Origin: a virus | Taxonomy: Duplodnaviria > Heunggongvirae > Uroviricota > Caudoviricetes | Reading direction: 5' to 3' (one strand) | DNA length: 35,514 nucleotides | IMG/VR virus record: IMGVR_UViG_2698536443_000010 | Span: 1-35,514 of that record | Shown here: piece by piece, positions 1,062 through 35,128 of the stretch | Numbering within the stretch: position 1 is the first letter of the stretch | Layout: each line of letters begins with the position of its first letter | The notes under the pieces: generated by a model | What the model saw: the letters and a program-made list of their open reading frames with translations, nothing else | The model's database searches: none | Told to the model about the DNA's origin: nothing | Program-made: the position numbers and the translations under genes

Positions 1062-2039
1062 TTACATTCCTCCCAAGGGATTAAACCTCACCGCATCCTG
1101 CAAGTAATCCGGCGCAAGATGGGCATAAATCATCGTTGTCTGAATCTTTGCGTGCCCCAGAATTTTCTGGAGCGTCAGAATATTGCCGCCGTTCATCATG
1201 AAATGACTGGCGAAGGTGTGGCGCAGCGCATGAACAGCCTGGCCGTCAGGAACATCAGGTGCGACCGTTTTGATGACATCGCGAACCAATGAATAATCCA
1301 GCGTCGGAAACACCAGTTTCCCGCCCCGTTTTTTGATCTTTTCAAACAGGCTTTCAGAAATAGGAACGGTACGGTTTTTGCTGTTCTTCGTTTTTGAAAA
1401 AGTGATTCGACAATGAAGAACACGGCGCTGCTCCAGTGCCGCTACCTCGCCCCATCGCGCCCCGGTCGACAGAAGGATTTCGACGGCCAGCCGTTCATCG
1501 GGATTTTCAGCCAGTGCATCCAGCAACTGAACACATTCAGACTTACTCAGATATCCCATTTCACGCTCGTTAACCTTCATTCCTTTAAGGCCTTGAACGG
1601 GGTTATCGTTAAGAAAATGGCCGGATGAGATGAGTGCGGTAAACATCGCGCTTAACGCCCCAATCTCTCGATTTATGGTGCTGGGCTGTATCCCCTGCTC
1701 TATCCTGGACACACGTAGCTCGGTGAGCATCGTTGTATTAAGTTTATGCACGCACGGGTCATCCATTGCCTCACTCAAGCGCAGCAATTTAAGGCGCGTG
1801 TTATGCCCTGACTTCATTAGCTGGCCGTGGTATTTCCACCACAAGTCAATAAGCACTGACAGCGGACGGCGATCAATGGAGTTTCCTTTCCACTCATTGT
1901 TATGCTGTTGCGCCAGCACCCACCGCTCATATAAAACTGCATCCGATTTCGTTTTAAATTTTTTGCGAATGCGTTTGCCTTTACGCCCCTCAGGACGCAT
2001 GTCAAGAAGATACCCTCCCGGAATTGATTTTATGCTCAT
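1062..2039 (-). CDS. int: Tyrosine integrase, P2 Int-like
   Basis: Resembles P2 Int from MSIKSI...RPEGRKGKRIRKKF; C-terminal HALRHTFASHFMMNGG...ILGHAKIQTTMIYAHL catalytic region. Start at internal ATG 2039 by homology; ORF extends to 2189. Confidence 0.9.
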   Translation of the reverse strand: MSIKSIPGGYLLDMRPEGRKGKRIRKKFKTKSDAVLYERWVLAQQHNNEWKGNSIDRRPLSVLIDLWWKYHGQLMKSGHNTRLKLLRLSEAMDDPCVHKLNTTMLTELRVSRIEQGIQPSTINREIGALSAMFTALISSGHFLNDNPVQGLKGMKVNEREMGYLSKSECVQLLDALAENPDERLAVEILLSTGARWGEVAALEQRRVLHCRITFSKTKNSKNRTVPISESLFEKIKKRGGKLVFPTLDYSLVRDVIKTVAPDVPDGQAVHALRHTFASHFMMNGGNILTLQKILGHAKIQTTMIYAHLAPDYLQDAVRFNPLGGM

Positions 2040-2088
2040 TCGTGAAGCCCCAGCGTTACAAGACCACCATGCCCCCAGCGTTCCATGA

Positions 2089-2400
2089 TTAGCCGGGCTG
2101 TGTGCCAGTCTTGCGGGATTTTTGAGAAGACGATGTGTTTTCTGGCCCATCAGGGGAGAGAGAAGGACTGATCTGCCCAGCAGCCTCATTTGTTTCGTTA
2201 CTCATCAACCACGTAGTGTATTTTTTAAATTCCGGGTGCATTGTGATTTTCAGTAAAACCTCCGTTCCCACACCTCGAATACCAGTCTCGTATTGCTTAA
2301 CCGTACCAACCGCAATACCTATTGAATCCGCGAACTTTGCCTGACTAAGCCCCTCAGATTCTCGAATTGCTTTTAGCTTCTTTGATATCTCTATTGACAT
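2089..2400 (-). CDS. C: Immunity repressor, P2 C-like
   Basis: MSIEISKKLKAIRESEGLSQAKFADSIGIAVGTVKQYETG (HTH) and FKKYTTWLMSNETNEAAGQISPSL resemble P2 C; AGGTG RBS before ATG 2400; divergent from rightward early genes. Confidence 0.8.
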   Translation of the reverse strand: MSIEISKKLKAIRESEGLSQAKFADSIGIAVGTVKQYETGIRGVGTEVLLKITMHPEFKKYTTWLMSNETNEAAGQISPSLSPDGPENTSSSQKSRKTGTQPG

Positions 2401-2774: not shown

Positions 2775-2788
2775 CGAGGTGTCATTTT

Positions 2789-3127: not shown

Positions 3128-3137
3128 CAGGTGCTTT

Positions 3138-3425: not shown

Positions 3426-3433
3426 AGGGCGTT

Positions 3434-3789: not shown

Positions 3790-3875
3790 CCGCGCAAATA
3801 AGACCCCAGGTTAAATAAGAAAATGTGAAAACAATCCGCATTCGCGGAGGTATTCGCACACGCCAAGGAGGCGTA

Positions 3876-4834: not shown

Positions 4835-7657
4835 ATGACGGCAGAGTACATCAGGGACTGGCAACAACCGCGCCACGCAGTGGGGCGTGAAGGAACGGGG
4901 ATCCCCGCTCCTGAATCCGCGCTTTCCTCCTGGCTGGATGCCCACCGGGCAGAGAACGAGCGCCGCCAGGAAATGGCTGATGCGGCGTTCTCCGCCACGC
5001 CACTGGGCAACCTGATTAATAAAAGCCTGGACGCACAGGAAAAACAGGACAAAACCATCACACTGGCAGGAGACGCCAGAAAACAGGCACGCGGCGCGGT
5101 GGATGAAGCCATGGCCTCGCTGCGCCTGCTGCCGTCCTATCTGCGCGATCCGCTTATTCGCCACCTCTCCTTCCTGCGCAAAAAACAGGAAGCCGATCGC
5201 CGGAAAGGCAAAAAGAGCTGGCAGGCGGAACGCTATGCACGCGGAACCCTGCGCAAAATATTCGAACGTCTGGATCGCACTGACGGACACTGGCTGACAC
5301 CGGGTTATCGCTCCCTTGCCGGACGCGAACGCCTGGACGATTTGCTTTACCTGCCGCAGCTCAACAAACACCAGATACAGACGCTGGCCACCATGACGGC
5401 GGCGATGTTCAGCAGCACCTTCGAAAAACTCTGCGATGGCTTTGGCGCGACCGATGGCGAACTGACCATGGATGTAACGCTGAAGGCGTATCAGATGCTG
5501 GCCCGCATGGCGTTACACCTGCACATCATGCCTCCACATTATGACGCACTGACAACAGATAAAGACCGGAGGAACGAACCGGACACGGAGCTGCTGCCGG
5601 GCACAATCCTTCGCCTGACCTGTGCGGAATGGTGGAAACGCAAACTGTGGCTGTTACGTTGCGAGTGGAGAGAAGAACAACTCCGCGCCGCCTGTCTGGT
5701 TTCCAGAAAAACATCACCCTATCTGAGCCAGGACGCGTTAAGCGAGTTTCGCGCACAGCGCGAGAAAACACGCGATTTCCTGAAAAGTTTCATGCTGGAA
5801 AATGAAGACGGGTTCACGATTGATCTCGAGACGGTGTATTACGCGGGAGTAAGTAACCCGGTTCACCGTAAAGCAGAAATGATGGCCACCATGAAGGGAC
5901 TGGAACTTCTGGCCGAAGCCCGTGGCGACAGAGCGGTGTTTCTGACCGTCACCTGCCCGTCAAAATACCACGCAACAACGGAGAACGGTCATCCGAACCC
6001 CAAATGGAACGGGGCCACCATGCGCGACTCCAGCGATTACCTGGTTAACACGTTTTTTGCGGCGGTCCGCAAGAAACTGAACCGCGACGGCCTGCGCTGG
6101 TATGGCATCCGCACGGTGGAGCCTCACCATGACGGCACCGTGCACTGGCATATGATGGTCTTTGCTCATCCGGAAGAAATCGACACCATTGTGTCCCACA
6201 CCCGCGATATTGCCATTCAGGAAGATCGTCACGAGCTGGGCGATGACATAACTCCGCGCTTTAAGGCGGAGTATGTAGACGGCTCAAAAGGCACGCCAAC
6301 CAGCTACATCGCCACCTACATCGGGAAAAACCTGGACAGCCGCGCCGTGGATGGCATCGACCCGAAAACGGGCAAGCCACGCGTTGACCACGAAACCGGA
6401 AAATCAATGGCCGAGAGCGTGGAACGCGCCATCGGCTGGGCGCGCCTTCACCGGGTCCGCCAGTTCCAGTTCTTTGGCATCCCCTCCCGCCAGGTATGGC
6501 GTGAACTGCGCCGCCTTGCCAGCCAGATGGCACGCAACCCGGAAGGCCCGCAACGGCTGAAGGATGACGCAATGGATGCGGTTCTTGCCGCCGCTGATGC
6601 CGGATGTTTTGCCACCTACATAGAGAAACAGGGCGGCGTACTTGTTCCACGCAAAGACTACCTGATTCGCACCGCCTACGACCTCGCCGATGAGCTGAAC
6701 GATTACGGCGAACAGAGCGTACAGATTTACGGGATCTGGTCACCACTCATCGGGGAATCCTCCCGTGTGTGCACGCATCCGGATAACTGGAAGCTGGTAA
6801 GACGCAAACCGGAAGCGGAAGACAGCGCCCGCGAAAATGGTTTTGACCTTCAGGGCGGCCCTGCCGCCCCTTGGACTCGTGGCAATAACTGTCCCCGTGT
6901 ACAGGAAACGGACAACAACGGGACAAAACAGCCGGAAGAACGGCCAGCACCGTGGCCGCAGCTCCCTGACGGCGTTGATGTGGATGAATGGATGCGCTCA
7001 CTGAAACGGCACGAACGCCGGGCGCTGATGCGTTCGCTTCGTGACAAACAGGCAAAAAACAGCAGTGATGAAATGCAGAGCTGGACACAGAGCCGCAAAC
7101 AGCAGCGGCCTTTGCCTGATAACCACGAATTACTCGCTAAAGAATGGCGGGAGTCTGCTGAATCTCTCGGTCTGCATATCGGTGAACAACAGATGCAGCA
7201 CCTGTTACGGGGCGGCAGTCTGTACGTTGACGGCAGCATCATTGCACCGCAGGGATTTGAAATTGTACGCAAACCGGATACCCGCCCGGACAGCCGAATC
7301 ACGCAGCTCTGGCAGCGCCTGAGCCGTAATCATGGCGTAAGCAGCACGGAGATCCGCCATAACCCGGTCGCCAGCTATCTGACACAGCTGGGGGCATCAG
7401 ACCCTGAAGCCGCCGCACGCCTGGCATCCACACTTCAGCAGGACCAGAACACCATGAAAACACCCGTTACCGTGCTTTCTGACATGCTGCGCGCCATCCG
7501 CGACGCAGAGCACGCACAGAGAATCAGTGAAACCACTGAACGCGCCAGCCGCAAAGCAGACCTGCTGCGGGGTGGCCTGACCAGTGGAAACAAAAAACAG
7601 ACAGAAACGGGACTCACGAATCCCGTAAATGAGCAAAAAACGCGCAGCGATATATGA
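4835..7657 (+). CDS. A: Replication initiation endonuclease, P2 gpA-like, with long C-terminal extension
   Basis: Central region FLTVTCPSKYHATTENGHPNPKWNG...RWYGIRTVEPHHDGTVHWHMMVFAHP...SYIATYIGKNLD typical of the P2 A rolling-circle initiator; 940 aa. Confidence 0.9.
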   Translation: MTAEYIRDWQQPRHAVGREGTGIPAPESALSSWLDAHRAENERRQEMADAAFSATPLGNLINKSLDAQEKQDKTITLAGDARKQARGAVDEAMASLRLLPSYLRDPLIRHLSFLRKKQEADRRKGKKSWQAERYARGTLRKIFERLDRTDGHWLTPGYRSLAGRERLDDLLYLPQLNKHQIQTLATMTAAMFSSTFEKLCDGFGATDGELTMDVTLKAYQMLARMALHLHIMPPHYDALTTDKDRRNEPDTELLPGTILRLTCAEWWKRKLWLLRCEWREEQLRAACLVSRKTSPYLSQDALSEFRAQREKTRDFLKSFMLENEDGFTIDLETVYYAGVSNPVHRKAEMMATMKGLELLAEARGDRAVFLTVTCPSKYHATTENGHPNPKWNGATMRDSSDYLVNTFFAAVRKKLNRDGLRWYGIRTVEPHHDGTVHWHMMVFAHPEEIDTIVSHTRDIAIQEDRHELGDDITPRFKAEYVDGSKGTPTSYIATYIGKNLDSRAVDGIDPKTGKPRVDHETGKSMAESVERAIGWARLHRVRQFQFFGIPSRQVWRELRRLASQMARNPEGPQRLKDDAMDAVLAAADAGCFATYIEKQGGVLVPRKDYLIRTAYDLADELNDYGEQSVQIYGIWSPLIGESSRVCTHPDNWKLVRRKPEAEDSARENGFDLQGGPAAPWTRGNNCPRVQETDNNGTKQPEERPAPWPQLPDGVDVDEWMRSLKRHERRALMRSLRDKQAKNSSDEMQSWTQSRKQQRPLPDNHELLAKEWRESAESLGLHIGEQQMQHLLRGGSLYVDGSIIAPQGFEIVRKPDTRPDSRITQLWQRLSRNHGVSSTEIRHNPVASYLTQLGASDPEAAARLASTLQQDQNTMKTPVTVLSDMLRAIRDAEHAQRISETTERASRKADLLRGGLTSGNKKQTETGLTNPVNEQKTRSDI
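7605..7629. repeat. 25-bp dyad-symmetric element, copy 1 (aaacgggactcacgaatcccgtaaa), inside the 3' end of A
   Basis: Arms acggga / tcccgt separated by 8 nt; 21/25 identical to copy 2. Confidence 0.7.
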
Positions 7658-7677
7658 AGCGCGCACAAAACAGGCAA

Positions 7678-7702
7678 AAACGGGATTTCAGAATCCCGTA
7701 AA
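7678..7702. repeat. 25-bp dyad-symmetric element, copy 2 (aaacgggatttcagaatcccgtaaa), upstream of parM-like gene
   Basis: Same dyad arms; lies 32 nt upstream of the parM-like start. Confidence 0.7.
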
Positions 7703-7733
7703 CGATTAATTAATCAACATAAGGAAAAGCGAC

Positions 7734-8693
7734 ATGAAAATTTGTATCGACGACGGCTCCACCAACATCAAGCTGGCATGGACTGAGAACGGCGAACGCC
7801 GCAACGCCATCAGCCCGAACAGCTTCAAGTCGGAATGGTCTGCGCCGTTCGGTGGCACGCAGCCCGCGAACTACATGCTTGATGGCGTGCGCTATGGTTT
7901 TGATCCGGTCAGCGATCGCTTTGTCCAGACGACCGACACGCAATACCAATACAGCGATGTGAATGTCATTGCCATTCATCACGCGCTGGTCAAATCAGGC
8001 ATCACACCACAGGAGGTGGATGTGGTTGTCACCCTGCCACTGAGCGAGTATTTCGACACAAACGCACAGCCGGACATGGCCAACATCAACCGCAAAAAAG
8101 CGAACGTTATGCGCCCGGTGGAGTACCAGAACGGCGAAGCATTCACTATCCGTAACGTGCGGGTTATGCCTGAATCCATTCCGGCTGGCTTTAAGGCACT
8201 GGCTGACATGAGTCCGTTTGAATCCCTGCTGATTGTGGATTTGGGCGGAACCACGCTGGATGTGGCAAAGGTTCAGGGGCAACTGGCAGGTATCAGCCAG
8301 GTGTTTTGCGATCCACACGTAGGCGTTTCTCTGATGGCCGATGCCGTACTGGCGGTGATGGCCACTAACGGTATGCGCACCAGTCACCACATCGCCAATA
8401 CCATTATCGAACATCGCCATGATGAAGCCTGGCTGCGCCAGCACATCCACAATGACGCGCATTACGCCAGCCTGATGGCGGTTATTCGTGAAAAGGAAGA
8501 AACACTGAAACAACGCGTGATCCGCGCGCTGGCGGTTTTTTCGGGTTACGGGCGGGTGATGGTTGTCGGTGGAGGGGCGGAGATTGTGGCACCCGCTATC
8601 CGCGAAGCCTGCGGAGTTAATGCGACTTTCATCGCGGACGGGGTGCCACAGTTTGCTCTGGTTAATGGGCTGTACGCAATGGACAAGGAGTAA
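7734..8693 (+). CDS. parM: Actin-like segregation ATPase, ParM/StbA family
   Basis: MKICIDDGSTNIKLAW...YSDVNVIAIHHAL...VMPESIPAG...LLIVDLGGTTLDV...VMVVGGGAEI matches conserved ParM blocks of plasmid R1 as recalled. Confidence 0.85.
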   Translation: MKICIDDGSTNIKLAWTENGERRNAISPNSFKSEWSAPFGGTQPANYMLDGVRYGFDPVSDRFVQTTDTQYQYSDVNVIAIHHALVKSGITPQEVDVVVTLPLSEYFDTNAQPDMANINRKKANVMRPVEYQNGEAFTIRNVRVMPESIPAGFKALADMSPFESLLIVDLGGTTLDVAKVQGQLAGISQVFCDPHVGVSLMADAVLAVMATNGMRTSHHIANTIIEHRHDEAWLRQHIHNDAHYASLMAVIREKEETLKQRVIRALAVFSGYGRVMVVGGGAEIVAPAIREACGVNATFIADGVPQFALVNGLYAMDKE

Positions 8694-8697
8694 ACCA

Positions 8698-9009
8698 ATG
8701 ACGACACCAACCAGACGGATAAGTTTCTATCTGAAGCCTGCGGCCGTCAAGAACGAAAGCGAAGCATGCGCCTGGCTGGACAGCCTTACACCAGAAGCCC
8801 GCAAAAGCGGCCAACGCGTGGCTTTTCTGGCCGGGCTGGCACTTCTGAAAATGAATCCAGCAGAGGCTTACCGACTGGCTGCATGGGCTGACGATGAGGC
8901 GTTATCAGTGACACAAACCAGGACAGAATGCCCCGCGTCACAGCCAGTATCAACCGCACAGATAACCAGTCAGATGGCCGGAAATATCCGGGCATTATTT
9001 CCCGAATAA
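8698..9009 (+). CDS. parR: ParR-like adaptor candidate
   Basis: Immediately downstream of parM with AAGGAG RBS; RRISFYLKP...AGLALL...RALFPE resembles R1 ParR as recalled. Confidence 0.55.
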   Translation: MTTPTRRISFYLKPAAVKNESEACAWLDSLTPEARKSGQRVAFLAGLALLKMNPAEAYRLAAWADDEALSVTQTRTECPASQPVSTAQITSQMAGNIRALFPE

Positions 9010-9014
9010 CACAA

Positions 9015-9038
9015 CATCAGGGCGCATCCGCCCTGATG
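9015..9038. terminator. Hairpin downstream of parR-like gene
   Basis: Inverted repeat atcagggcg / cgccctgat with 4-nt loop; weak T tract. Confidence 0.4.
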
Positions 9039-9107
9039 ACTTTAATCCGGGAACATAAACAAGGGGGACAAAATGCAACACATTGACAGAGAAAAAGGAA
9101 AAAAAGC

Positions 9108-9326
9108 ATGAACAGAAAACAGAAACAAGAGTTGAAATACTTCTTACGTAAAGAAATTGCCAGGCTTGAAGATGCAGAGTCACAATCATCAGAAATTCCG
9201 TTCGGAATGGATATCAACGACGCCCGTATGCTTCAGGCATACCGTATAGCTCAGGCTGCACTACAGACAAAACCGTTAAATAACATACATGAAAAGTATG
9301 ATTATTTTACGGATACCGCTTGCTGA
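9108..9326 (+). CDS. Hypothetical protein
   Basis: 72-aa ORF in the A-to-cos accessory region. Confidence 0.4.
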   Translation: MNRKQKQELKYFLRKEIARLEDAESQSSEIPFGMDINDARMLQAYRIAQAALQTKPLNNIHEKYDYFTDTAC

Positions 9327-9511
9327 CATCTGAAGAACAAAAGATAGCCCAACTTTTAGGCGACGCATGGAACCTGTATTTAACATTGCCAGTTGAGCAT
9401 CCAATGGGTAGAGATGAATTTTGCCGGGCAATTCATCATTGCCAAAATATGATGTTGGCACGCCCGGCCATCAGGACGCTGGCCAGGAAGGGGCAAGGCT
9501 ATAAAAGATAA
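9320..9511 (+). CDS. Hypothetical protein
   Basis: 63-aa ORF; followed by a terminator hairpin. Confidence 0.35.
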   Translation: MLTSEEQKIAQLLGDAWNLYLTLPVEHPMGRDEFCRAIHHCQNMMLARPAIRTLARKGQGYKR

Positions 9512-9514
9512 GTA

Positions 9515-9544
9515 AAACGCCCTCCTCCATGGCGTTTATTTCAA
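9515..9544 (+). terminator. Rho-independent terminator
   Basis: Stem aaacgcc / ggcgttt with 9-nt loop, followed by tttattt. Confidence 0.6.
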
Positions 9545-9995
9545 TGCACAATAGTGCACAAATTTGCACAATTTTTTTGAACGACTTTTTGCCCTTCCGG
9601 CCCGCGTTGCGGCTGGATCCGTCAAGGATCCGTGCGTGCACAAAAAAACGCGCTTTTTCTGCGCGCAGGTGACGGGGGAACAGCCCGCGTTTCAGGGGGT
9701 AAATAGCATTCCCTGAACGATGTCGCAGCGACACAACAGAATGGCTGTATTTCTCACGCTGAGCGTGAAAAAGGCGTGAGGGCTTTTGATTTGATGGGGT
9801 GAAAGGTAAGGCCGTCAAAATCGCACTGAGGCGGCGAGAACATACAGTCAACGCGGTGGGATTGCGTAAGAGTCTGACCGTCGATGGTGGCGATAAACTG
9901 GAAGGCGTCGTGAAATTATCTGACTGATACAGGAGCTGGAGAGTCGGGGCATAAATTTTTTATGCCCCGGCGAAGCAGCAGACAAGCGAAGCGCG
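9545..9995. other. Non-coding region expected to hold cos and packaging signals (exact cos not identified)
   Basis: Position between the accessory region and portal Q as in P2; palindromes at 9722..9732, 9754..9768 and 9945..9969. Confidence 0.4.
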
Positions 9996-21204: not shown

Positions 21205-23337
21205 ATGAGTACCACAACACGAAAATTTAAAACCATTATCACTGATACTGGTGCCAAAAAATTAGCTCAGGCAGCCGCGCCAGATGGTAATCCTGTCCGC
21301 CTGACTCACATGGCCGTGGGCGACGGTGGCGGCACGTTGCCCACACCAGACAGTAAGCAGACCCGTCTGGTGCATGAGGTGTGGCGACATACTGTTAATC
21401 GCGTCATCCTGGACGCAACACATCAGAACCGCATTATTGCGGAGCTGGTTATTCCTCCTGAAACGGGAGGATTCTGGATCCGGGAAATTGGTGTGTTTGA
21501 TGAGCACGGCGATTTAATCGCGGTGGGCAATACTGCCGAAAGTTACAAGCCAGCCGTTGCCGAAGGGTCCGGACGTGCACAAACATTTCGCACCATTCTG
21601 ACAGTATCCAGCACTGCCACCGTGGCGCTTACCGTGGATAACACCATGGTTATGGCCACAGTGGATTACGTGGATAACAAACTGAAAGAGCATGAACAGT
21701 CACGACGTCACCCGGATGCCTCGCTGACCGCAAAAGGCTTTGTTCAACTCAGTAGCGCCACTAACAGCGATTCTGAAACGCTGGCTGCAACGCCGAAAGC
21801 GGTTAAGGTCGCGTATGATCTTGCTAACGGAAAATATACAGCGCAGGATGCCACAACAGCGCGAAAAGGCCTTGTCCAGCTTAGTAGTGCAACCAACAGT
21901 ACATCTGAAACGCTGGCGGCAACATCAAATGCAGTAAAAGCTGCCTATGACAATGCTGAAAAACGTCTGCAGAAAGCTAAGAATGGTGAGGATATCTCTG
22001 ACAAAGACACCTTTACGAAAAATATCGGTGCCTGCCGTGCATATAGTGCAGAGCTGAATATTGGTGGAGATAGTGAAGCATGGACAACTGCGCAGTTGAT
22101 TTTTTGGCTAGAGAGTCAGGGGGCATTTAACCATCCTTACTGGATGTGCAAAGGCTCATGGGCTTATGCAAGTAATAAGGTCATTACAGATACAGGTTGC
22201 GGAAATATTTGTCTTGCAGGTGCTGTTGTGGAAGTTATTGGCACCCGCGGCGCAATGACCATACGCATTACCACACCGAGTACATCCAGCGGTGAAGGCA
22301 TCCCTAATGCTCAATTTACTTATATTAATCATGGTGATGCTTATGCTCCTGGCTGGCGAAGGGACTATAACTCCAGGAATAAGCCAACAGCATCAGAGAT
22401 CGGGGCGTTACCGTCAGATGGGACAGCAGTATCGTCAGTTAATCTGGCTTCAAAAGGTCGGCTGACCGCCCTGACAGATAATATGCAGGGGGCCACAGGT
22501 CTGGAGTTATACGAGGCGTATAACAACGGATATCCAACAACGTATGGAAATATCATTCACCTGAAAGGGATGACAGCCGTTGGCGAAGGTGAGTTACTCA
22601 TCGGCTGGAGTGGTACAAGCGGTGCTCATGCTCCGGCATTTATTCGTTCACGACGGGATACGATCGACGCAAACTGGTCGCCGTGGGCGCAGCTTTACAC
22701 CTCGGCTCATCCTCCTGCAGAGTTTTATCCAGTCGGTGCACCAATCCCGTGGCCATCAGATACCGTTCCGTCTGGTTATGCCCTGATGCAGGGGCAGACT
22801 TTTGACAAATCTGCATACCCGAAACTTGCAGCCGCTTATCCGTCAGGCGTGATCCCTGATATGCGTGGCTGGACGATTAAGGGCAAACCTGCCAGTGGTC
22901 GGGCCGTATTGTCTCAGGAACAGGACGGCATAAAATCGCACACCCACAGCGCCAGCGCATCCAGTACGGATTTGGGGACGAAAACCACATCGTCGTTTGA
23001 TTACGGTACTAAAACGACCAGTTCATTTGATTACGGCACAAAAACCACAAATAGCGCAGGAGCTCATTCACACAATATACCTGTTGGTCACACTGGCGCG
23101 GGGAATGGTGTATCAGCCGGTTATAACGCTGCGTTAGGTACTGGTACCACGTCGAGCGCAGGAGAGCATGCTCACAATGTATATATCGGTGCCCATAACC
23201 ACACTATCGGCATTGGTGCTCATGCCCATTCTGTCATTATTGGTCCCCACGGACACACCATCACCGTTAATGCTACGGGGAACGCAGAAAACACCGTAAA
23301 AAACATCGCATTTAACTATATTGTGAGGCTTGCATAA
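21205..23337 (+). CDS. H: Tail fibre protein, P2 gpH-like N-terminus with divergent His-rich C-terminal domain
   Basis: N-terminal ~250 aa resemble P2 H ([23 protein letters not shown], duplicated [15 protein letters not shown] motif); C-terminus has [10 protein letters not shown] tandem repeats and HxH-rich repeats. Confidence 0.9.
22974..23055. repeat. About 2.5 copies of a 30-bp tandem repeat inside H (encodes [10 protein letters not shown])
   Basis: Direct reading of DNA and translation. Confidence 0.7.
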
Positions 23338-23915
23338 TGACATTCAGAATGAGTGAACAATCACGGACCATAAAAATTTATAATCTACTGACCGGAACCA
23401 ATGAGTTTATTGGTGAAGGTGATGCATACATTCCACCTCATACAGGTCTGCCTGCAAACAGTACCGATATTGCCCCGCCAGATATTCCGGCTGGCTTCGT
23501 GGCCGTTTTCAACAGTGATGAGGCATCGTGGCATCTCGTTGAAGACCATCGGGGTAAAACGGTTTATGACGTGGCATCAGGGGACGCGTTATTTATTTCT
23601 GAACTCGGTCCGTTACCGGAAAATGTTACCTGGTTGTCGCCGTATGGAGAGTATCAGAAGTGGAACGGCACATCCTGGGTGAAAGATGCAGAAGCAGACA
23701 AACTATTTCGGATAAGGGAGGCGGAAGAAACAAAAAACAGCCTGATGCAGGTAGCCAGTGAGCATATTGCGCCACTTCAGGATGCCGTAGATTTGGATAT
23801 TGCGACGGAGGAAGAGGCATCGTTACTGGCTGCATGGAAGACATATCGGGTATTGTTGAATCGTGTTGATACAACAGTAGCAGCGGATGTTGAGTGGCCA
23901 GTCGCCCCACAATAA
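23337..23915 (+). CDS. G: Tail fibre assembly protein, P2 gpG-like (divergent N-terminus)
   Basis: C-terminal [12 protein letters not shown]...EWPVAPQ resembles the P2 G C-terminus; TAATG overlap with H. Confidence 0.75.
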
Positions 23916-23923
23916 AAAGAAAA

Positions 23924-23949
23924 AGCCATCGACAGAAATATCGATGGCT
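23924..23949. terminator. Bidirectional terminator between convergent G and acetyltransferase gene
   Basis: Stem agccatcga / tcgatggct with 8-nt loop; T-run on the minus-strand side. Confidence 0.6.
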
Positions 23950-23958
23950 TTATGTACT

Positions 23959-24531
23959 CTATTTATACAATACAGCACCGCTCTTTTTAGTTATATATGT
24001 GCAGTTCGATGGTATATCTTTATTTATAAAAGACATTGCACCTATTTTTACATTATCCCCAATTTTACGGGATAATCCAATGATGCAACAATTAGCTCCG
24101 ATATCAACGTTGCTACCAATTTTTACTCTTGAACCAGGTATGTCACCATCTATCTGTCCAATGGTCGTATTCTGTCGTAACACCAGATTTTCACCAGCAT
24201 CAACAGCAAAATGAACAACAATTCCAGCATGATGGGGAATTGTTAACCCTTTTCCAATATTTGCGCCCAATCCAATTTCACAACCAAATTTGTTAATTAT
24301 TTTACTGTTTAACTTTTTGGCTGCTTTCTTATGTAATTTATTACCATTAATATACATTTCGTTAGCCAACCGCCACCAGAAAAGGAAATTCCGGTTACGC
24401 TGTTTTTTCTCTCTTAAAAGCCTCCAGATATCCATACGTTTCCGCCGAATTACTTCATATTTCCAGAAGTTTTTTAAATTAGTAGAGTTCCCAAATAAAA
24501 CAAAGTGAATTGCCATTAAGTAAGACAGCAC
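23959..24531 (-). CDS. Hexapeptide-repeat (left-handed beta-helix) acetyltransferase, CysE/O-acetyltransferase-like; AT-rich moron
   Basis: Isoleucine-patch repeats IGANIGKGLTIP...VKIGSNVDIGANCCIIG...KIGDNVKIGAMSFI; GTG start at 24531 after AAGGAG RBS (ORF extends to 24564; alternative ATG 24516). Confidence 0.7.
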   Translation of the reverse strand: MLSYLMAIHFVLFGNSTNLKNFWKYEVIRRKRMDIWRLLREKKQRNRNFLFWWRLANEMYINGNKLHKKAAKKLNSKIINKFGCEIGLGANIGKGLTIPHHAGIVVHFAVDAGENLVLRQNTTIGQIDGDIPGSRVKIGSNVDIGANCCIIGLSRKIGDNVKIGAMSFINKDIPSNCTYITKKSGAVLYK

Positions 24532-24687
24532 GATAATCTCCTTAATTATTATTTCAGACGACACATATTATAAGGTTAAGAGATTATAAAATCCTGTTGT
24601 TTGTTATTCAAAAACAATTTTCTGAGAAGGACATACAACAGCAAGTCGCCAGTCACCTTCATCAGGAAATTGGCGACATACGTTAAA

Positions 24688-25182
24688 TCAGAGCAGCCCC
24701 TTAACTGAGCTGGTCGCGCTATTAAGGGATGATGTCACCTTATCTTTGAAGCCGGACAACATATCGCTGAACGATGAGGATTGCAGGCGCTCCCGCAAAT
24801 CCTCATCACAGCGTTCAAGAGTCAGTGAAAATTCTATCTTTTTCGCCTTACCGTAGCGATCAAACTCGGAACGGGTCGTATTCGTTCCGGTCAGGACATA
24901 CATGCCGTAAATCTGCCCGACGCCATCAATCAAAGGCCAGGGTCGTCCTGTATACGCCTGCGTGGTCAGCAGCGACAGCGACACTTCGCCACCTGTAATT
25001 TCAGGATAAAGCACACCAGAAAGAACGATGCGATCATCACCTGCACCGATATACTGCCAGCTTGCTGAACGGTTAACGCGTTCATTTTTCACATGCCGCC
25101 AGCTTTTGTTTTGCTGTAACTGCTGATGCGGCAGCGTGCGCAGCTCAAAAACAAACATGCCGTAGATCATCATCATGGCCAT
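24688..25182 (-). CDS. U: Tail protein, P2 gpU-like
   Basis: SWRH...VNRS...GAGDD...LSG...ITGGEVSLSLLTTQAYTGRPWPLIDG...IYGMYV...LRERLQSSS...SGFKDKVT resemble P2 U. Confidence 0.9.
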   Translation of the reverse strand: MAMMMIYGMFVFELRTLPHQQLQQNKSWRHVKNERVNRSASWQYIGAGDDRIVLSGVLYPEITGGEVSLSLLTTQAYTGRPWPLIDGVGQIYGMYVLTGTNTTRSEFDRYGKAKKIEFSLTLERCDEDLRERLQSSSFSDMLSGFKDKVTSSLNSATSSVKGLL

Positions 25183-30263: not shown

Positions 30264-30420
30264 AGCTTCAGCCCCTTGTATCCGTTAAATGATTCGGCAA
30301 CAATCATCACCCACCACGCGCGTAATCTCACTCCTGCGCCGTTCTCCCGCCACGGCGACAACAAAAAGCAGTAACCCCCTCCGCACGCACATGCGACCAT
30401 GCCGCACAGGGAGGGAACAG
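30264..30420. promoter_or_regulatory. Divergent intergenic region between FI (minus) and D (plus); presumed promoters
   Basis: 157 bp between divergent starts; no TGT-N12-ACA element found by eye. Confidence 0.35.
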
Positions 30421-31524
30421 ATGACCGACACCACCATGCAATTGCTCAGTCAGGGCACAGACCCCGTGAAAATGCCGGATTTTGATATTCTCGCGGAGGG
30501 TAAAACGCTGTCAGGCGTGGCAGAGCGCCTGATGAGCCTGTCACTGACCGACAACCGGGGATTTGAAGCGGACCAGCTCACCATCACGCTGGATGATGCG
30601 GATGGTCAGTTGCAGCTACCGCCACGGGGCGCGCGCCTGACGGTTCTCATTGGCTGGAAAGGAGAACCGCTGACAGAAAAAGGCACTTACATTGTTGATG
30701 AAATCGCTCACGAAGGACCGCCGGACAGGCTGACTGTTTCAGCCAGAAGCGCAGATTTTCGGGATGAATTTAACGTTAAACGTGAGGTGTCCTGGCATGA
30801 TGTGACCGTTGAGCGTGTGGTATCCGCCATCGCTCATCGGTATGGTCTGAAACCGCAAATCAGCGAAATGCTGATGGATATCGAAATCGACCACGCCGAC
30901 CAGACCGAAGAAAGCGACATGTCCTTCCTTACGCGCATGGCGGAAATGCTGGGCGCAATCACCACAGTAAAAAGCGGCAATCTGTTATTCATCATGCCAG
31001 GTGGTGGCGTGAACGCACAGGGCCAGCCGTTGCCCTCGTTCGCCATTACACGCAGCAGCGGCGATCGCCATCAGTTCCGTATTGCTGACCGCGAGGCGTA
31101 TACGGGGGTACGCGCCTACTGGCTTGATCTTAATTACGGGAAAAAGAAAAAAGTCAGCGTGAAACGCCGTAAACCGCCAAAACCCAAAAAGGAGAAAAGC
31201 AGCAGCCGTGAAGGTGATTATATGGAAGGCGCGGAAGGCAATGTGTTTGTGTTACGCAAGACTTATCAGAACGAGCAGGCAGCAAGACGCGCAGCGGCGG
31301 CAAAGTGGCAGCAGCTACAACGCGGAGCCGCAGCGTTCTCCATCACACTGGCACGTGGACGCGCAGAACTCTACCCCGAAATGCATGGCACGGTAACAGG
31401 CTTTAAAAGCGAGATTGATAATCAGGACTGGATTATTGCGAAAGCCGAGCACACCATTGATAACAGCGGCTTTACCACGCAGCTTGAGCTTGAGGCAAAA
31501 ATCCCGGAATGGATAGCAGAATGA
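30421..31524 (+). CDS. D: Late control / tail protein, P2 gpD-like
   Basis: LSLTDNRGFEADQL...RSADFR...SWHD...FLTRLAE...ITRSSGDRH...YTGV...REGDYM...NVF...KWQQLQRG...FTTQLELE resemble P2 D; GGGAGGG RBS before ATG 30421. Confidence 0.9.
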   Translation: MTDTTMQLLSQGTDPVKMPDFDILAEGKTLSGVAERLMSLSLTDNRGFEADQLTITLDDADGQLQLPPRGARLTVLIGWKGEPLTEKGTYIVDEIAHEGPPDRLTVSARSADFRDEFNVKREVSWHDVTVERVVSAIAHRYGLKPQISEMLMDIEIDHADQTEESDMSFLTRMAEMLGAITTVKSGNLLFIMPGGGVNAQGQPLPSFAITRSSGDRHQFRIADREAYTGVRAYWLDLNYGKKKKVSVKRRKPPKPKKEKSSSREGDYMEGAEGNVFVLRKTYQNEQAARRAAAAKWQQLQRGAAAFSITLARGRAELYPEMHGTVTGFKSEIDNQDWIIAKAEHTIDNSGFTTQLELEAKIPEWIAE

Positions 31525-31688: not shown

Positions 31689-32324
31689 TTAGCGAGCTAA
31701 TATATTCAAAGAATTTAACAATTGAGTGTCGAGTGTTTCAGTTGCAGGAATCGGTAATCCATTCGCAATGCGGTAATTTTTCACAGACAGCCTTGTGGAT
31801 GGCCCCATTATGCCGTCAATATTTCCGTTATAAAATCCCCTGTCCAGCAATGCGAACTGAACTCGCATAATCAATCGCTTACGTTTCTCTGCATCAGAAG
31901 CAAGCCCATTACTCGTACGGTTAACCTCTGAAGTTCCAACAGAACTCGTGTTAGTGGTTCTATTATTATCGTTAGAACGAAGTGCACGCACCGAGGAAGA
32001 GGACGATGAGGAACTTGCACCTGAACTTGAAGAACCAGATGAACGTGGTGAGCTGTATGTTTTTGGATAATAGGGGGTACTTCCACCATAGTATCCACCA
32101 CCTGATGAGGATCTATGAGAGCTATGGCTCCTATGAGAGCTATGGCTTCGATGCCCTGCGATATAAAATGGGACTTCCGTGTTAAGTGGAGCTATCACTA
32201 AATCATGCTCATTAAGAGTCATACCAGGTAAATCACTCGCTCCTGTAGATGAATCGCTTGCCCATACAGAATTGTTGAGAGCCAAAAATCCCGGAAGTAG
32301 AGCAGCAAAATTAAACTTTTTCAT
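31689..32324 (-). CDS. hxsA: His-Xaa-Ser repeat protein (HxsA-like): signal peptide, HRS/HSS repeat tract, Ser/Gly-rich linker, peptidoglycan-binding-like C-terminal domain
   Basis: MKKFNFAALLPGFLALNNSVWA signal peptide; HRSHSSHRSHSSHRS; C-terminal LIMRVQFALLDRGFYNGNIDGIMGPSTRLSVKNYRIANGLP; ATGA overlap with upstream radical-SAM gene. Confidence 0.7.
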   Translation of the reverse strand: MKKFNFAALLPGFLALNNSVWASDSSTGASDLPGMTLNEHDLVIAPLNTEVPFYIAGHRSHSSHRSHSSHRSSSGGGYYGGSTPYYPKTYSSPRSSGSSSSGASSSSSSSSVRALRSNDNNRTTNTSSVGTSEVNRTSNGLASDAEKRKRLIMRVQFALLDRGFYNGNIDGIMGPSTRLSVKNYRIANGLPIPATETLDTQLLNSLNILAR

Positions 32325-33433
32325 AAAATTGGTCTCGGTGATTGATGAAAACGGCCTTTTGAGGAACTGAAATAGCCAGCACAGGAAGGCTTCTGAGTAC
32401 ATTCATCACATTCTTTTGGATAGTAATTTTTCCAATCAGAGATCGACTGAACAGCAAGCTCCCTAGCCCTTTCAGGAAGATAACACAAAGGATAATTAAA
32501 AATTGTCAGAGGTATGCCTGACCTGTATGCAGCGTCTATGGCAGAGATTATTTTCTCACTATAACTACTGTGATCAATGAAGATGGTGGACCAGTTTTTT
32601 CGTGCCCAACCGATAGGCTCCAACCCCATAAGGGAAATCTGATTGATGTTGGAGAACACACGGCCAGCGAATTCTACAATATCATCCAATTCGGTATAGT
32701 TAGCCAGTGTAGGAATAACTCTAAGTTCGATATTAATCCCCAAGTTTCCTGCATTGATTAACCCTTTAACCGTTTCATTAAATGCGCCATCACTCCCTAC
32801 CAGATGATCATGCACAAGTGGTCTTGATGAGTAGAGCGGGATACCAAAGGTGATTTTGATCTTTTTGCTTCGCTTTGCCATTTCCTGTGTAAAGTTGATA
32901 TCAGCAAATTTGCGTCCGTTTGTTAAAACATGTAAAGCAGTATCTGGTGAATTCTCGATGATAAAATCAATGAAGTGAAGGAAGTCATCCCCATATAGCA
33001 AAGGTTCACCACCGCTGACCCCAACAACTCCGTTCAAGCCAAATGAAGCTATAGCAAGAGCTGATTGGGTAAGTAGCCAGTCATCATTTATTTTCTTTGG
33101 TGGCTGCGAACAAAACAGACACAAGTTATTGCAGCGTTCCGTAACTAAGACAGTATTATGATTGGCTTTGCGTGACAGAATAACGCGTATCATATTGCCA
33201 TTGTTGATTATCCCAATATCTCCATCTTCAATTGACTCAAATAATTCAGTGCTAATAACAGAGAAATCAAAGCATGGTGGAATGGCATCATTATTGCCTT
33301 CAGCAACTACTAGCAAATTGGGCAAAAAGAATAAAGGGTTCACTGGTTTTTGTTTGCATAACCGATAGAACCCCGTGGGCACGTTCTCTGTAGAAGCAAA
33401 ATGAAAGATATCGTTCCTGATAACCTCAGACAT
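32321..33433 (-). CDS. hxsB: Radical SAM enzyme with SPASM-like C-terminus (HxsB-like maturase; B/C assignment tentative)
   Basis: CNNLCLFC (CX3CX2C), GGEPLL motif, C-terminal Cys cluster CDECTQKPSCAGYF. Confidence 0.75.
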   Translation of the reverse strand: MSEVIRNDIFHFASTENVPTGFYRLCKQKPVNPLFFLPNLLVVAEGNNDAIPPCFDFSVISTELFESIEDGDIGIINNGNMIRVILSRKANHNTVLVTERCNNLCLFCSQPPKKINDDWLLTQSALAIASFGLNGVVGVSGGEPLLYGDDFLHFIDFIIENSPDTALHVLTNGRKFADINFTQEMAKRSKKIKITFGIPLYSSRPLVHDHLVGSDGAFNETVKGLINAGNLGINIELRVIPTLANYTELDDIVEFAGRVFSNINQISLMGLEPIGWARKNWSTIFIDHSSYSEKIISAIDAAYRSGIPLTIFNYPLCYLPERARELAVQSISDWKNYYPKECDECTQKPSCAGYFSSSKGRFHQSPRPIL

Positions 33434-34814
33434 ATGCCCATCCTTTTAGCATCTCAGCCTTCGAACCACCCTCTGAGATGCAGTTCATCAGATACCTGAA
33501 CATCCCCTTGTGATATTGACAAAACGTTGAACGACTCCTATCACCGACAGGCTCACCCTGTACACTTATGTTCTGGCATGGATCTGAACCACAAAATGGT
33601 TGATATGCACATGTATCACAACCTGGCAGAGCAAAATTGAACGATGAACTCAATACTGCGTTATAGTAAGGACTATCAGAAAATGATAGCGTCTTAACTT
33701 CACCCGCACTGAACTCCGTTTCAGGATTCACCTTCTGCAACATACGGCTCTCATCGCTACCATATACTCGACCGTCATAATTGAAAAGAATACTGTTAAG
33801 CACGACTCCACTTGGAGACTTTAAATCCGCATAACCACTAAAACCGGGATTGAAGATCCTTTTCAGATGAATGGAGGCCGAATGTTCCACAACCCTTATC
33901 CCTTCATTATTAATCTTAAGGATTTCATCTATCAACGAGGCATAGAAGCTGAAGTATTCGTCCATAGAAAAGGTGAAAGAAGCTTTTTGTGCAAACCCAT
34001 AGGGACTAACAGGTCGGATAAACATGTCCTTGAGACCAAGAGACAAGTGAGCCTGAACAATCGATTCAGGACGTTTGATAAGCTCTTTAGTAACTGTAGT
34101 AACCGTTGCAACGCGGCCAGCACCTAAAGAGTGTTTGATAGCCTCTACCCCTGACACTGTTCTACTGTACGCAAGCCCACGACCAAGAATTCGATTACTG
34201 TTGTGAACAACTTCCTCACCATCAAGCGACACAGAGAACGTTATGTTCCGGTCTCTCGACCATTCAATCATATCCTCATTCAAGACGGACAGACTTGATG
34301 CCACCACCATCTCAAAATTGGTTCTTCCCAGCGTTTCAGCACATTGATCATAGATGCTCTGAATTAAATCAAACCGCAAGAGAGGCTCCCCACCCTGTAT
34401 CTCTATTTTGTAAGGTGGCGTTGATAGTTTTTTAATAGCCGAAATAATATCGGGGATGAGCTCAGGATTTAGGTCGTAACCTGAGGCATTAACAGAAGCT
34501 CTACTAACCTGGCAATACTTGCATGTATGGTCACAACGTAATGTGGGTACAATCATGAAAATTGGCCTGACAGCCAGTTCATTCATCAATCGTTTTGCAA
34601 AAGCAGAACTTAAAGCATAGGGAGTTATAGCAGATGAGCTTTCACTGGTTATGAAAAGCTTACTTTCTAGCACGTTTGATTGCTCCGAACTAATTCGCTC
34701 ATCAGAAAGATCAATAAGGTCTTGCTCACCAATGAAATGATGAAAACCTGCAAGGTTGCTTATAAACACCTGTCCATTAGGCAATCTGTCAAAATTAAAT
34801 GGCATCAATTCCAT
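33426..34814 (-). CDS. hxsC: Radical SAM enzyme with SPASM-like C-terminus (HxsC-like maturase; B/C assignment tentative)
   Basis: CDHTCKYC (CX3CX2C), GGEPLL motif, C-terminal CDTCAYQPFCGSDPC. Confidence 0.75.
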   Translation of the reverse strand: MELMPFNFDRLPNGQVFISNLAGFHHFIGEQDLIDLSDERISSEQSNVLESKLFITSESSSAITPYALSSAFAKRLMNELAVRPIFMIVPTLRCDHTCKYCQVSRASVNASGYDLNPELIPDIISAIKKLSTPPYKIEIQGGEPLLRFDLIQSIYDQCAETLGRTNFEMVVASSLSVLNEDMIEWSRDRNITFSVSLDGEEVVHNSNRILGRGLAYSRTVSGVEAIKHSLGAGRVATVTTVTKELIKRPESIVQAHLSLGLKDMFIRPVSPYGFAQKASFTFSMDEYFSFYASLIDEILKINNEGIRVVEHSASIHLKRIFNPGFSGYADLKSPSGVVLNSILFNYDGRVYGSDESRMLQKVNPETEFSAGEVKTLSFSDSPYYNAVLSSSFNFALPGCDTCAYQPFCGSDPCQNISVQGEPVGDRSRSTFCQYHKGMFRYLMNCISEGGSKAEMLKGWAYV

Positions 34815-35128
34815 TATGAAAGCCTCTCATCAACACTGCGAAGCACTTTATGGACAATAGAGTCTCTCAACGCCCCTGTTTTATGCTGTAGCTTTTCTCG
34901 CAAAGAGTAATCATTAAGCAGCCTATCGAATTCATAAAGGAATTTGGGATTATCGTTTTCAAAAGAGATTATCCAGTGGGAAACGTCTTCATGGAGTTTC
35001 CATCGAGTAAGCGGAGTCATCCAATATAGACTATTGCGTATAACCCATTCAGAATATAGTTCTTTCTCAAACACTCTTTCGCTCATTGCAATTATCTTCC
35101 AATACAAATATTCATGATCAGCAACCAC
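34814..35128 (-). CDS. hxsD: HxsD-like small protein with LLNDYSLRE motif
   Basis: FDRLLNDYSLREKLQ matches the LLNDYxLRE signature; first gene of the operon; start uncertain (GTG 35128 or ATG 35086). Confidence 0.65.
   Translation of the reverse strand: MVADHEYLYWKIIAMSERVFEKELYSEWVIRNSLYWMTPLTRWKLHEDVSHWIISFENDNPKFLYEFDRLLNDYSLREKLQHKTGALRDSIVHKVLRSVDERLS

What the first reader, a model, noticed from the sequence alone, without database searches (positions are those of the whole stretch)
23959..24564. AT-rich hexapeptide-repeat acetyltransferase moron next to the tail-fibre genes
A left-handed-beta-helix acetyltransferase on the opposite strand to H and G, strongly AT-rich, with its own AAGGAG RBS and a bidirectional terminator (23924..23949). 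This position corresponds to the known P2 cargo hotspot beside the tail-fibre genes. Such an enzyme could O-acetylate surface polysaccharide (lysogenic conversion or receptor masking) or act as an acetylating toxin; function cannot be decided from sequence.
Basis: partly seen in the sequence, partly recalled or inferred. Interest (0 to 1): 0.55.

Follow-up and report, generated by a model that had tools for sequence, protein, structure and literature searches.

The report
Prophage sugar acetyltransferase beside tail fibre
A small AT-rich gene next to the tail-fibre genes of this E. coli prophage encodes an acetyl-transferring enzyme that databases call a serine acetyltransferase. It lacks the serine-binding residues and most likely acetylates the cell's lipopolysaccharide, so it looks like a fairly ordinary, though untested, phage gene for altering the host surface.

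Summary
The gene is real, but the coding sequence is 23959..24531 (-), 190 aa. It starts at a GTG six bases after AAGGAG, not at 24564. GC is 35% against 52% for the window. A strong hairpin lies 8 nt past the stop.

The prophage is P88-like (Xuanwuvirus), not P2 proper. In P88 this slot holds an alternative fibre set plus an invertase.

The protein (WP_000954204, "serine acetyltransferase", in 530 of 5,426 complete E. coli genomes) has the CysE/WcaB-type fold and keeps the catalytic His/acid pair. It lacks CysE's Asp157 and His193; the Arg192 position is not conserved. It also lacks the N-terminal extension and the CysK-binding tail, and scores far below every curated cutoff.

Relatives at 44-99% identity sit directly beside tail-fibre assembly genes in several phage backbones. 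Fibre tip (T4 gp37-like), tfa and this gene move together as one cassette into P1-like phages.

Four independent contexts link the family to LPS core:
- the last gene of the Leminorella waa operon, after waaZ and facing waaL;
- a Pseudomonas core/O-antigen cluster;
- two prophages that pair it with GT25 or GT9 glycosyltransferases beside tail fibres.

Best reading: an LPS O-acetyltransferase that masks a phage receptor (confidence about 0.55). There is no biochemical evidence. It is a new member of a known kind; interest is moderate.

The parts
23959..24531 (-). CDS, 190 aa, CysE/WcaB-like left-handed beta-helix O-acetyltransferase (WP_000954204.1; PHROG 2154). It has a five-helix N-domain (res 2-82) and an LbH domain (res ~84-180). 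Catalytic His100 and Glu85.
24538..24543 (-). Shine-Dalgarno AAGGAG, 6 nt before the GTG start at 24531
   Evidence: sequence. Invariant with the GTG in five diverged loci.
24583..24611 (-). Sigma-70-like promoter, TTGAAT-17-TATAAT (10 of 12 matches). It lies in the 156-bp gap between the gpU stop and the acetyltransferase start.
   Evidence: consensus match only. Conserved in the window and L007, degenerate in L069, L076 and L078. Homology of the mobile cassette ends at 24613-24615 in three other phage types.
23922..23951 (.). Hairpin shared by the convergent tfa and acetyltransferase genes. It is an intrinsic terminator with a U-run on the - strand only.
23916..24687 (.). AT-rich island (34.5% GC) between tfa and gpU
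23337..23915 (+). Tail-fibre assembly chaperone (G/Tfa, Caudo_TAP), convergent neighbour. It travels with the acetyltransferase.
22694..23337 (+). 3' part of tail-fibre gene H (whole gene 21205..23337) encoding the receptor-binding tip. It is 65.6% identical to the T4 gp37 C-terminus and forms the left end of the exchanged cassette.
24688..25182 (-). gpU tail protein, right border of the slot. It is co-directional and upstream of the acetyltransferase.

Best explanation
The gene encodes a soluble, cytoplasmic, acetyl-CoA-dependent O-acetyltransferase of the CysE/WcaB branch of the left-handed beta-helix superfamily. Its acceptor is a sugar of lipopolysaccharide, not L-serine. The most likely acceptor is the core oligosaccharide, while it is being built at the inner face of the inner membrane.

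The gene is probably expressed from its own promoter in the lysogen, and possibly also by read-through from the gpU/tape-measure operon late in infection. The enzyme would add acetyl groups to LPS and so change a surface structure used as receptor or co-receptor by T4-gp37/P1/Mu/P2-type tail fibres. The outcome would be lysogenic conversion, meaning superinfection exclusion and/or protection of progeny from adsorbing to debris.

The gene moves between phage families as one cassette with the receptor-binding fibre tip and its chaperone.

Shown: the gene, its signals, the fold, the retained catalytic dyad, the loss of serine-binding residues, the linkage to tail fibres, the cassette transfer, and the LPS-cluster contexts of relatives.

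Inferred: the acceptor, the expression pattern and the phenotype.
For: 1. Enzyme.
- PDB phmmer hits SATs at E about 1e-12 over the LbH domain.
- The AF2 model has pLDDT 83.8 and a SAT-like fold.
- His100 (= CysE His158) is 98% conserved, and position 85 (= Asp143) is always Asp or Glu, across 41 homologues at 41-85% identity.

2. Not serine.
- CysE Asp157 is Pro99 here and variable in the family.
- CysE His193 is a gap.
- The Arg192 position is only 24% conserved (residue roles from PMC9547175).
- The C-terminus is ...VLYK, with no tail and no terminal Ile.
- No SATase_N domain was found.
- TIGR01172 scores 60.9 bits against a cutoff of 210.65.
- The loop that forms the acceptor pocket in CysE (res 125-137) is the most variable part of the LbH domain: 2.67 vs 1.33 bits entropy.

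3. LPS context of in-family relatives.
- Leminorella L102 scores 234 bits on the family HMM, against 94 for WcaB and 71 for CysE. It is the last gene of waaG-waaP-GT4-GT8-waaY-waaZ, facing waaL.
- Pseudomonas L104 lies between WaaP-type kinases, a NodU-like carbamoyltransferase and a GT2 on one side, and wbpA/B/D-like genes on the other.
- A Xenorhabdus prophage has the homologue plus GT25 (123 bits) next to the tail fibre.
- A Morganella prophage has the homologue plus GT9, the heptosyltransferase family (32.6 bits, cutoff 22), next to tail fibre and baseplate genes.

4. Tail-fibre linkage.
- 10 of 25 sequence clusters (85% identity) have a Caudo_TAP or fibre gene within two genes. This holds down to 44% identity.
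- The backbones include P88-like, P1-like, P2-order and other myoviruses.
- Window 22694..24523 (tip + tfa + acetyltransferase) is 93.9% identical in P1-like phages.

5. The fibre tip is a T4 gp37 homologue. The gp37 receptors are OmpC and LPS core glucose (my own knowledge).
Against: - There is no biochemical or phenotypic data for any family member. The JL22 paper states the reason for its presence is unknown (PMC9603915).
- Several members are not near fibres or LPS genes: the EPEC EAF plasmid after bfp, a prophage end by hok/copA, and isolated chromosomal genes.
- Adjacency to tfa could be simple hitch-hiking in a recombination hotspot. The SAT-Tfa identity correlation (rho 0.80) is expected from linkage alone.
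- Fibre tips vary (62-100%) beside nearly identical enzymes, so there is no one-to-one pairing.
- The best curated profile hits still carry the name serine O-acetyltransferase (EpsC 74 bits).
- The promoter is only a consensus match and is degenerate in some loci.
Confidence: 0.55

Rival explanations
1. It is still a sugar O-acetyltransferase used for lysogenic conversion, but it acts on another surface glycan: the O-antigen repeat unit, colanic acid, a capsule or ECA, rather than LPS core.
For: - WcaB (colanic acid) is a detectable relative: 52 bits, and 94 bits against the family HMM.
- The top NCBIfam hit is an EPS-cluster enzyme.
- The Pseudomonas homologue borders wbpA/B/D-like O-antigen genes.
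- The known precedent NeuO acetylates a capsule (PMC3046976).
Against: The most specific contexts are core-specific: the waaZ/waaL operon, and the GT9 and GT25 partners. No homologue examined here lay in a wca, kps or typical E. coli O-antigen cluster.
Confidence: 0.2
2. It is a genuine, feedback-insensitive serine O-acetyltransferase, as annotated. It would be an auxiliary metabolic gene raising O-acetylserine and cysteine or CysB signalling in the lysogen.
For: - The RefSeq name.
- The nearest solved structures are all CysE.
- The catalytic dyad is retained.
Against: - The counterparts of the serine-binding Asp157 and His193 are absent, and the Arg192 position is not conserved in the family (PMC9547175).
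- No SATase_N domain and no C-terminal tail.
- It scores 60.9 bits against a cutoff of 210.65.
- Relatives sit in LPS operons.
Confidence: 0.08
3. It is an intracellular anti-phage or toxic acetyltransferase, for example one that acetylates a phage or host macromolecule or metabolite. This would be analogous to cargo such as Z/fun in the equivalent P2 slot.
For: It occupies a variable slot downstream of G. In P2-order relatives it lies exactly between G and FI. Prophage hotspots are rich in defence genes (PMC9122126).
Against: - No PADLOC match.
- It is a single gene with no partner.
- It is stably carried in about 10% of E. coli genomes.
- The LPS-cluster members are hard to reconcile with a toxin.
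- Known acetylating toxins are GNATs, not LbH enzymes (my own knowledge).
Confidence: 0.07
4. It serves the virion, for example by acetylating the tail fibre or its chaperone or by assisting fibre assembly. Alternatively it is a decaying passenger with no function.
For: It is tightly linked to tfa and the fibre tip, and co-directional with late tail genes in this phage.
Against: - The same tfa type occurs in lambdoid phages without it.
- P88 itself lacks it.
- Family members occur outside phages.
- Catalytic and core residues are conserved down to 41% identity, which argues against decay.
Confidence: 0.05

Closest known systems
[quoted passage not shown]
   Same: It is a prophage-borne, soluble LbH, acetyl-CoA-dependent O-acetyltransferase that modifies a surface glycan used by phages. 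It gives lysogenic conversion and phage resistance (PMC3046976; PMC13001214).
   Different: NeuO belongs to another LbH branch (MAT/GAT-like) and did not appear among PDB sequence hits at E<=1e-3. It is phase-variable through 5' heptanucleotide repeats, and no repeats are present here. Its target is a capsule, not LPS. The phage backbone is different.
CysE, serine O-acetyltransferase (TIGR01172; PDB 1T3D, 6WYE, 4N69)
   Same: It has the same overall fold (helical N-domain plus LbH), and the same catalytic His and acid pair.
   Different: The protein here is 190 aa against about 273. It has no SATase_N extension and no CysK-binding tail. Asp157 and His193 are missing and Arg192 is not conserved. 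It scores far below the cutoff.
WcaB and the EPS-cluster 'EpsC' short CysE-like sugar acetyltransferases
   Same: They are of similar size (146-168 aa profiles), share the I-x-H-H/IPHH active-site motif and have a short helical N-domain. They are encoded in polysaccharide clusters.
   Different: Scores are only 52-74 bits against cutoffs of 150-196. The family has its own invariant motifs, FWWRLA and RQNTTIG. It is carried by mobile elements.
Oac/GtrABC-type seroconverting functions of Sf6, P22 and related phages
   Same: They share the biological logic: a temperate phage modifies the LPS that its own kind uses as receptor, and the gene sits near the tail or att end.
   Different: Those are integral-membrane acyltransferase_3 or bactoprenol-linked glucosyl systems acting on O-antigen in the periplasm. 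This protein is a soluble LbH enzyme acting in the cytoplasm (no such Pfam hits).
The invertible tail-fibre segments of P88, P1 (C segment) and Mu (G segment), and P2 Z/fun
   Same: They occupy the same genomic slot downstream of the tail-fibre chaperone. In P1-like phages the gene lies inside the C segment between the two convergent chaperone genes.
   Different: Those elements switch or extend host range, or (Z/fun) block T5. Here the alternative fibre set and the invertase are replaced by an enzyme gene.

Membership tests
CysE serine O-acetyltransferase | Reaches the curated equivalog score (TIGR01172 cutoff 210.65; NF008349 cutoff 397) | tested here: not met
   60.9 and 35.9 bits
CysE serine O-acetyltransferase | Catalytic His158 and Asp143 dyad | tested here: met
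   His100 is 98% conserved; position 85 is Glu or Asp
CysE serine O-acetyltransferase | L-serine/cysteine-binding residues Asp157, Arg192 and His193 (PMC9547175) | tested here: not met
   Asp157 is Pro99 here and variable. His193 is a gap. The Arg192 position is 24% conserved. Asp92 could not be placed from sequence.
CysE serine O-acetyltransferase | N-terminal SATase_N domain, and a C-terminal tail ending in Ile that binds CysK | tested here: not met
   No SATase_N hit. The protein ends ...GAVLYK about 10 residues after the LbH domain.
Left-handed beta-helix (hexapeptide) acyltransferase superfamily | Hexapeptide repeats folding into an LbH, with an active-site His | tested here: met
   Pfam Hexapep is sub-threshold (23.6 vs 27). 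PDB phmmer gives E 1e-12, the AF2 model has pLDDT 83.8, and Foldseek gives probability 1.00.
WcaB colanic acid acetyltransferase | Equivalog score (cutoffs 194.65 and 196) and location in the wca cluster | tested here: not met
   51.6 and 52.3 bits. It lies in a prophage, not in wca.
PHROG 2154 (phage protein family, function unknown) | Full-length profile match | tested here: met
   E 2.1e-86, residues 13-190 against profile 3-181 of 185
NeuO-type prophage O-acetyltransferase | NeuO-like sequence and 5' phase-variable tandem repeats | tested here: not met
   NeuO is absent from PDB hits at E<=1e-3. No tandem repeats in 23800..24800.
Lysogenic-conversion (receptor-modifying) moron | Non-essential gene in a prophage next to receptor-binding genes, with atypical composition and its own expression signals | tested here: met
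   Absent from P88. GC is 35% vs 52%. RBS, promoter-like site and terminator are present. Adjacent to tfa and the fibre.
Lysogenic-conversion (receptor-modifying) moron | Demonstrated chemical change of the surface glycan, and altered phage adsorption | not testable with these tools
   Needs LPS mass spectrometry and adsorption assays. No paper was found that characterises the gene.
LPS core biosynthesis/modification enzyme | Family members encoded within waa/core clusters or paired with LPS-specific glycosyltransferases | tested here: met
   L102 waaZ-[homologue]-waaL. L104. GT25 partner. GT9 partner. This applies to relatives at 42-50% identity, not to the window gene itself.
Known anti-phage defence systems (PADLOC) | Match to a defence-system protein model | tested here: not met
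   0 families at E<=1
P2 Z/fun cargo slot | Located between tail-fibre chaperone gene G and sheath gene FI | tested here: inconclusive
   In the window the right neighbour is gpU, because the tail block is inverted. Homologues in P2-order phages L081-L084 do lie between G and FI. The position of Z/fun itself is from my own knowledge.

The most novel reading that the evidence does not exclude
The acetyltransferase is functionally paired with the receptor-binding module. A three-part cassette (gp37-like fibre tip, Tfa chaperone, receptor-modifying enzyme) is exchanged as a unit among Peduoviridae, P1-like phage-plasmids and other myoviruses. The enzyme would put an O-acetyl group on the LPS core of about one in ten E. 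coli, many of them STEC. That modification is not part of the standard E. coli core structures, and it would block the whole class of gp37/P1/Mu-type fibres.
Probability: 0.3. Interest if true: 0.6.

Novelty: new member of a known kind. Interest (0 to 1): 0.4.

Why it matters
If the prediction holds, three things follow.

1. A gene annotated "serine acetyltransferase" in about 10% of complete E. coli genomes, and in many other Enterobacterales mobile elements, is mis-named. It would actually alter LPS. That bears on phage host range, phage-therapy resistance, serology and possibly serum or antimicrobial-peptide sensitivity of STEC and EPEC strains.

2. It would give a simple case of a receptor-binding protein and a receptor-modifying enzyme travelling as one recombination cassette across unrelated phage backbones.

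3. It would assign a function to PHROG 2154.

The idea is cheap to test. The concept itself, a temperate phage acetylating a surface glycan, is well established, so the surprise value is moderate.

Tried and rejected
- PADLOC scan for defence models found nothing.
- The search for phase-variable tandem repeats, as in neuO, found none.
- The search for invertase crossover-type inverted repeats around the slot found only short chance-level pairs.
- Literature searches for the accession, for serine acetyltransferase plus tail fibre, and for core-OS acetyltransferases found no functional study. There were only two passing mentions: JL22 sacF 'reason unknown', and a C. rodentium phiNP ORF4 listed as a 'fitness' gene.
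- Rousset et al. 2022 and the 2026 follow-up preprint do not mention acetyltransferases.
- Beyond about L113 the genome-contig scan returned generic CysE-like proteins at 25-45% partial identity. These are not family members and were not used.
- My crude gene caller picked a shadow ORF for L104. This was corrected by hand.
- The SAT-Tfa identity correlation was computed, but I do not count it as functional evidence because adjacent genes co-diverge by linkage.
That comparison is supportive only.

Full report
**1. What is in the sequence**

A - strand ORF ends at 23959. The AAGGAG he cites lies inside that ORF at 24543..24538. It is followed after six bases by GTG at 24531.

RefSeq annotates exactly this 190-aa product (WP_000954204.1, "serine acetyltransferase") in a 99.9% identical locus. 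The string TAATAATTAAGGAGATTATCGTG is invariant in five loci whose coding regions differ by up to 30%. Homologues start at the same residue.

The CDS is 34.9% GC, against 51.9% for the window and 48-50% for the flanking tail genes.

Eight bases beyond the stop lies a 11-13 bp hairpin at 23922..23951, with free energy -16 to -18 kcal/mol and z about -4 to -5. It carries a U-run only on the acetyltransferase strand.

A TTGAAT-17-TATAAT match lies at 24611..24583. It is a consensus hit only. It is conserved in the closest relatives and degenerate in others.

**2. The surrounding element**

The window is a P88-like (Xuanwuvirus, Peduoviridae) prophage, not P2 itself. It contains:
- an integrase at 1062..2189;
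- the replication gene gpA;
- a ParM-like gene;
- the head and baseplate genes;
- H (21205..23337) and G/tfa (23337..23915) on the + strand;
- gpU, the tape-measure gene, E, FII and FI on the - strand, converging on H and G.

In P88 and in Citrobacter phage Shae_phiSM, the gap between tfa and gpU holds a second chaperone, a second fibre tip and a DNA invertase. Here that invertible unit is replaced by the acetyltransferase. So the "P2 cargo hotspot" analogy is only loosely right. In relatives with true P2 gene order (L081-L084), a 65% identical homologue does sit between G and FI on the opposite strand.

**3. The protein**

Curated profiles place it near, but well below the cutoffs of, the following:
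- EPS-cluster "EpsC": 74 bits, cutoff 150;
- CysE: 61 bits, cutoff 211;
- WcaB: 52 bits, cutoff 196.

PHROG 2154 (unknown function) matches at full length. PADLOC gives nothing.

PDB sequence search aligns only the C-terminal LbH half to serine acetyltransferases, at E about 1e-12. An AF2 model built on 41 homologues (pLDDT 83.8) shows five N-terminal helices followed by the beta-helix. It matches SAT structures with TM 0.5-0.69.

Against CysE, whose residue roles are taken from PMC9547175:
- The general base His158 is kept as His100 (98% conserved). Its partner Asp143 is kept as Glu/Asp85.
- Asp157 is Pro99 here and variable in the family.
- His193 falls in a gap.
- The Arg192 position is 24% conserved.
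- The long N-terminal extension and the CysK-binding tail are absent.

The loop corresponding to CysE's acceptor-pocket loop (res 125-137) is the most variable part of the beta-helix, at 2.67 against 1.33 bits. The family has its own invariant motifs, FWWRLA and RQNTTIG.

The enzyme is therefore probably active, but L-serine is an unlikely acceptor.

**4. Distribution and linkage**

The DNA occurs in 530 of 5,426 complete E. coli genomes: 534 chromosomal and 66 plasmid places. A diversified family of about 190-aa proteins at 40-85% identity exists across Enterobacterales.

I analysed the neighbours of 106 loci.
- In 10 of 25 sequence clusters, the gene is within two genes of a Caudo_TAP chaperone or a fibre gene. 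In most it is directly convergent with it.
- This holds from 99% down to 44% identity.
- It holds in P88-like, P1-like (inside the C segment between the two chaperones), P2-order and other myovirus backbones.
- Two further clusters are three to four genes from fibre or baseplate genes.

Window 22694/22724..24523 covers the last ~205 codons of H, then tfa, then the whole acetyltransferase. It is 93.9% identical in P1-like phages whose other genes are unrelated. In three other phage types the homology runs from about 22728 or 23336 to 24613-24615, just past the -35 hexamer.

The fibre tip is 65.6% identical to the C-terminus of T4 gp37.

The same chaperone type also occurs in lambdoid phages without the enzyme. 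Some family members are on the EPEC EAF plasmid, at prophage ends, or isolated in chromosomes. The gene is therefore an accessory and not part of the fibre machinery.

**5. What the relatives point to**

Four independent contexts tie the family to LPS core.

- *Leminorella grimontii.* A clear family member scores 234 bits on the family HMM, against 94 for WcaB and 71 for CysE. It is the last gene of waaG-waaP-GT4-GT8-waaY-waaZ and faces waaL. WaaZ scores 402 bits against a cutoff of 200.
- *A Pseudomonas genome.* The homologue follows two WaaP-type kinases, a NodU-like carbamoyltransferase and a GT2. It precedes wbpA/B/D-like genes.
- *Xenorhabdus prophages.* The homologue forms a two-gene unit with a GT25 LPS glycosyltransferase, between the integrase and the tail fibre.
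- *A Morganella prophage.* The homologue is followed by a GT9 (heptosyltransferase-family) gene and then the tail fibre and baseplate genes.

A further member lies next to, but divergent from, an arnT-ugd region.

**6. Mechanism proposed**

I propose a cytoplasmic acetyl-CoA-dependent O-acetyltransferase that decorates LPS. Core oligosaccharide is the most likely target; the O-unit or another glycan is less likely. It would be expressed from the prophage and would change a structure used by gp37/P1/Mu/P2-type fibres.

The benefit would be exclusion of related phages and/or protection of progeny from debris.

The acceptor, the expression pattern and the phenotype are inferences. Nothing has been measured, and the one paper that discusses the gene says its role is unknown (PMC9603915).

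**7. Comparison and verdict**

The nearest functional precedent is NeuO of prophage CUS-3. It is an LbH O-acetyltransferase that modifies the K1 capsule and raises phage resistance (PMC3046976, PMC13001214). It belongs to a different LbH branch and is phase-variable, which this gene is not.

Membership in CysE proper fails on score, domain architecture and substrate residues. Membership in the LbH superfamily is met.

I rate this a new member of a known kind: a prophage surface-glycan acetyltransferase. It probably carries a mis-annotation, and it shows a neat cassette association with the receptor-binding tip. Interest is 0.4.

Noticed in passing
L181 (phage P88) 1767-4471; L182 (Shae_phiSM) 1511-3978: In the reference Xuanwuviruses, the slot between tfa and gpU holds a second, inverted chaperone and fibre tip plus a DNA invertase, as in the Mu G or P1 C segment. 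The window phage has lost this host-range switch and carries the acetyltransferase in its place.
   Followed up: partly
L004-L006, about 5617-6605: A variant of the same slot has the 70% identical acetyltransferase, then a truncated 87-aa Caudo_TAP fragment and a 222-aa class I SAM methyltransferase, before the intact tfa. This suggests repeated insertion at this junction.
   Followed up: no
window 31689-35128 (- strand): Four co-directional genes lie beyond gpD (30289..31524). They are a 237-aa protein with no Pfam hit, two radical-SAM proteins (370 and 462 aa) and a 104-aa protein. They could be prophage cargo or host flank; I could not decide.
   Followed up: no
window 7734-8693 (+): A ParM/StbA-type actin-like segregation protein lies next to the gpA replication gene. 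This matches the plasmid-partition cargo that Rousset et al. report in about a quarter of P2-like phages (PMC9122126).
   Followed up: no
window 21732-21957 and 22969-23190: Tail-fibre gene H contains internal direct repeats: two 94-nt copies, three 30-nt units encoding D(L/Y)GTKTT-type repeats, and HxH-rich repeats. These are typical of gp37-like needle domains.
   Followed up: no
L012-L015 (EPEC EAF-type plasmids), gene at 5001-5594: A 50% identical family member sits just downstream of the bfp (bundle-forming pilus) operon among IS66 fragments, far from any phage genes.
   Followed up: no
L008-L011, 4662-5573: A 57% identical homologue lies at the end of a prophage, immediately after a hok/gef-type toxin gene and before chromosomal copA.
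   Followed up: no
L003 (phage-plasmid JL22) 5660-6136: The deposited sacF annotation (477 nt) is N-terminally truncated relative to the 573-nt CDS supported by the conserved RBS and GTG. In P1-like phages the gene lies inside the invertible C segment, so inversion would place it co-directional with either fibre operon.
   Followed up: partly
L016-L017 (Salmonella), 5001-9959: A 62% identical homologue abuts an integrase in an island. The island also carries a MazE/PIN toxin-antitoxin pair and a second, unrelated 208-aa hexapeptide-repeat protein.
   Followed up: no
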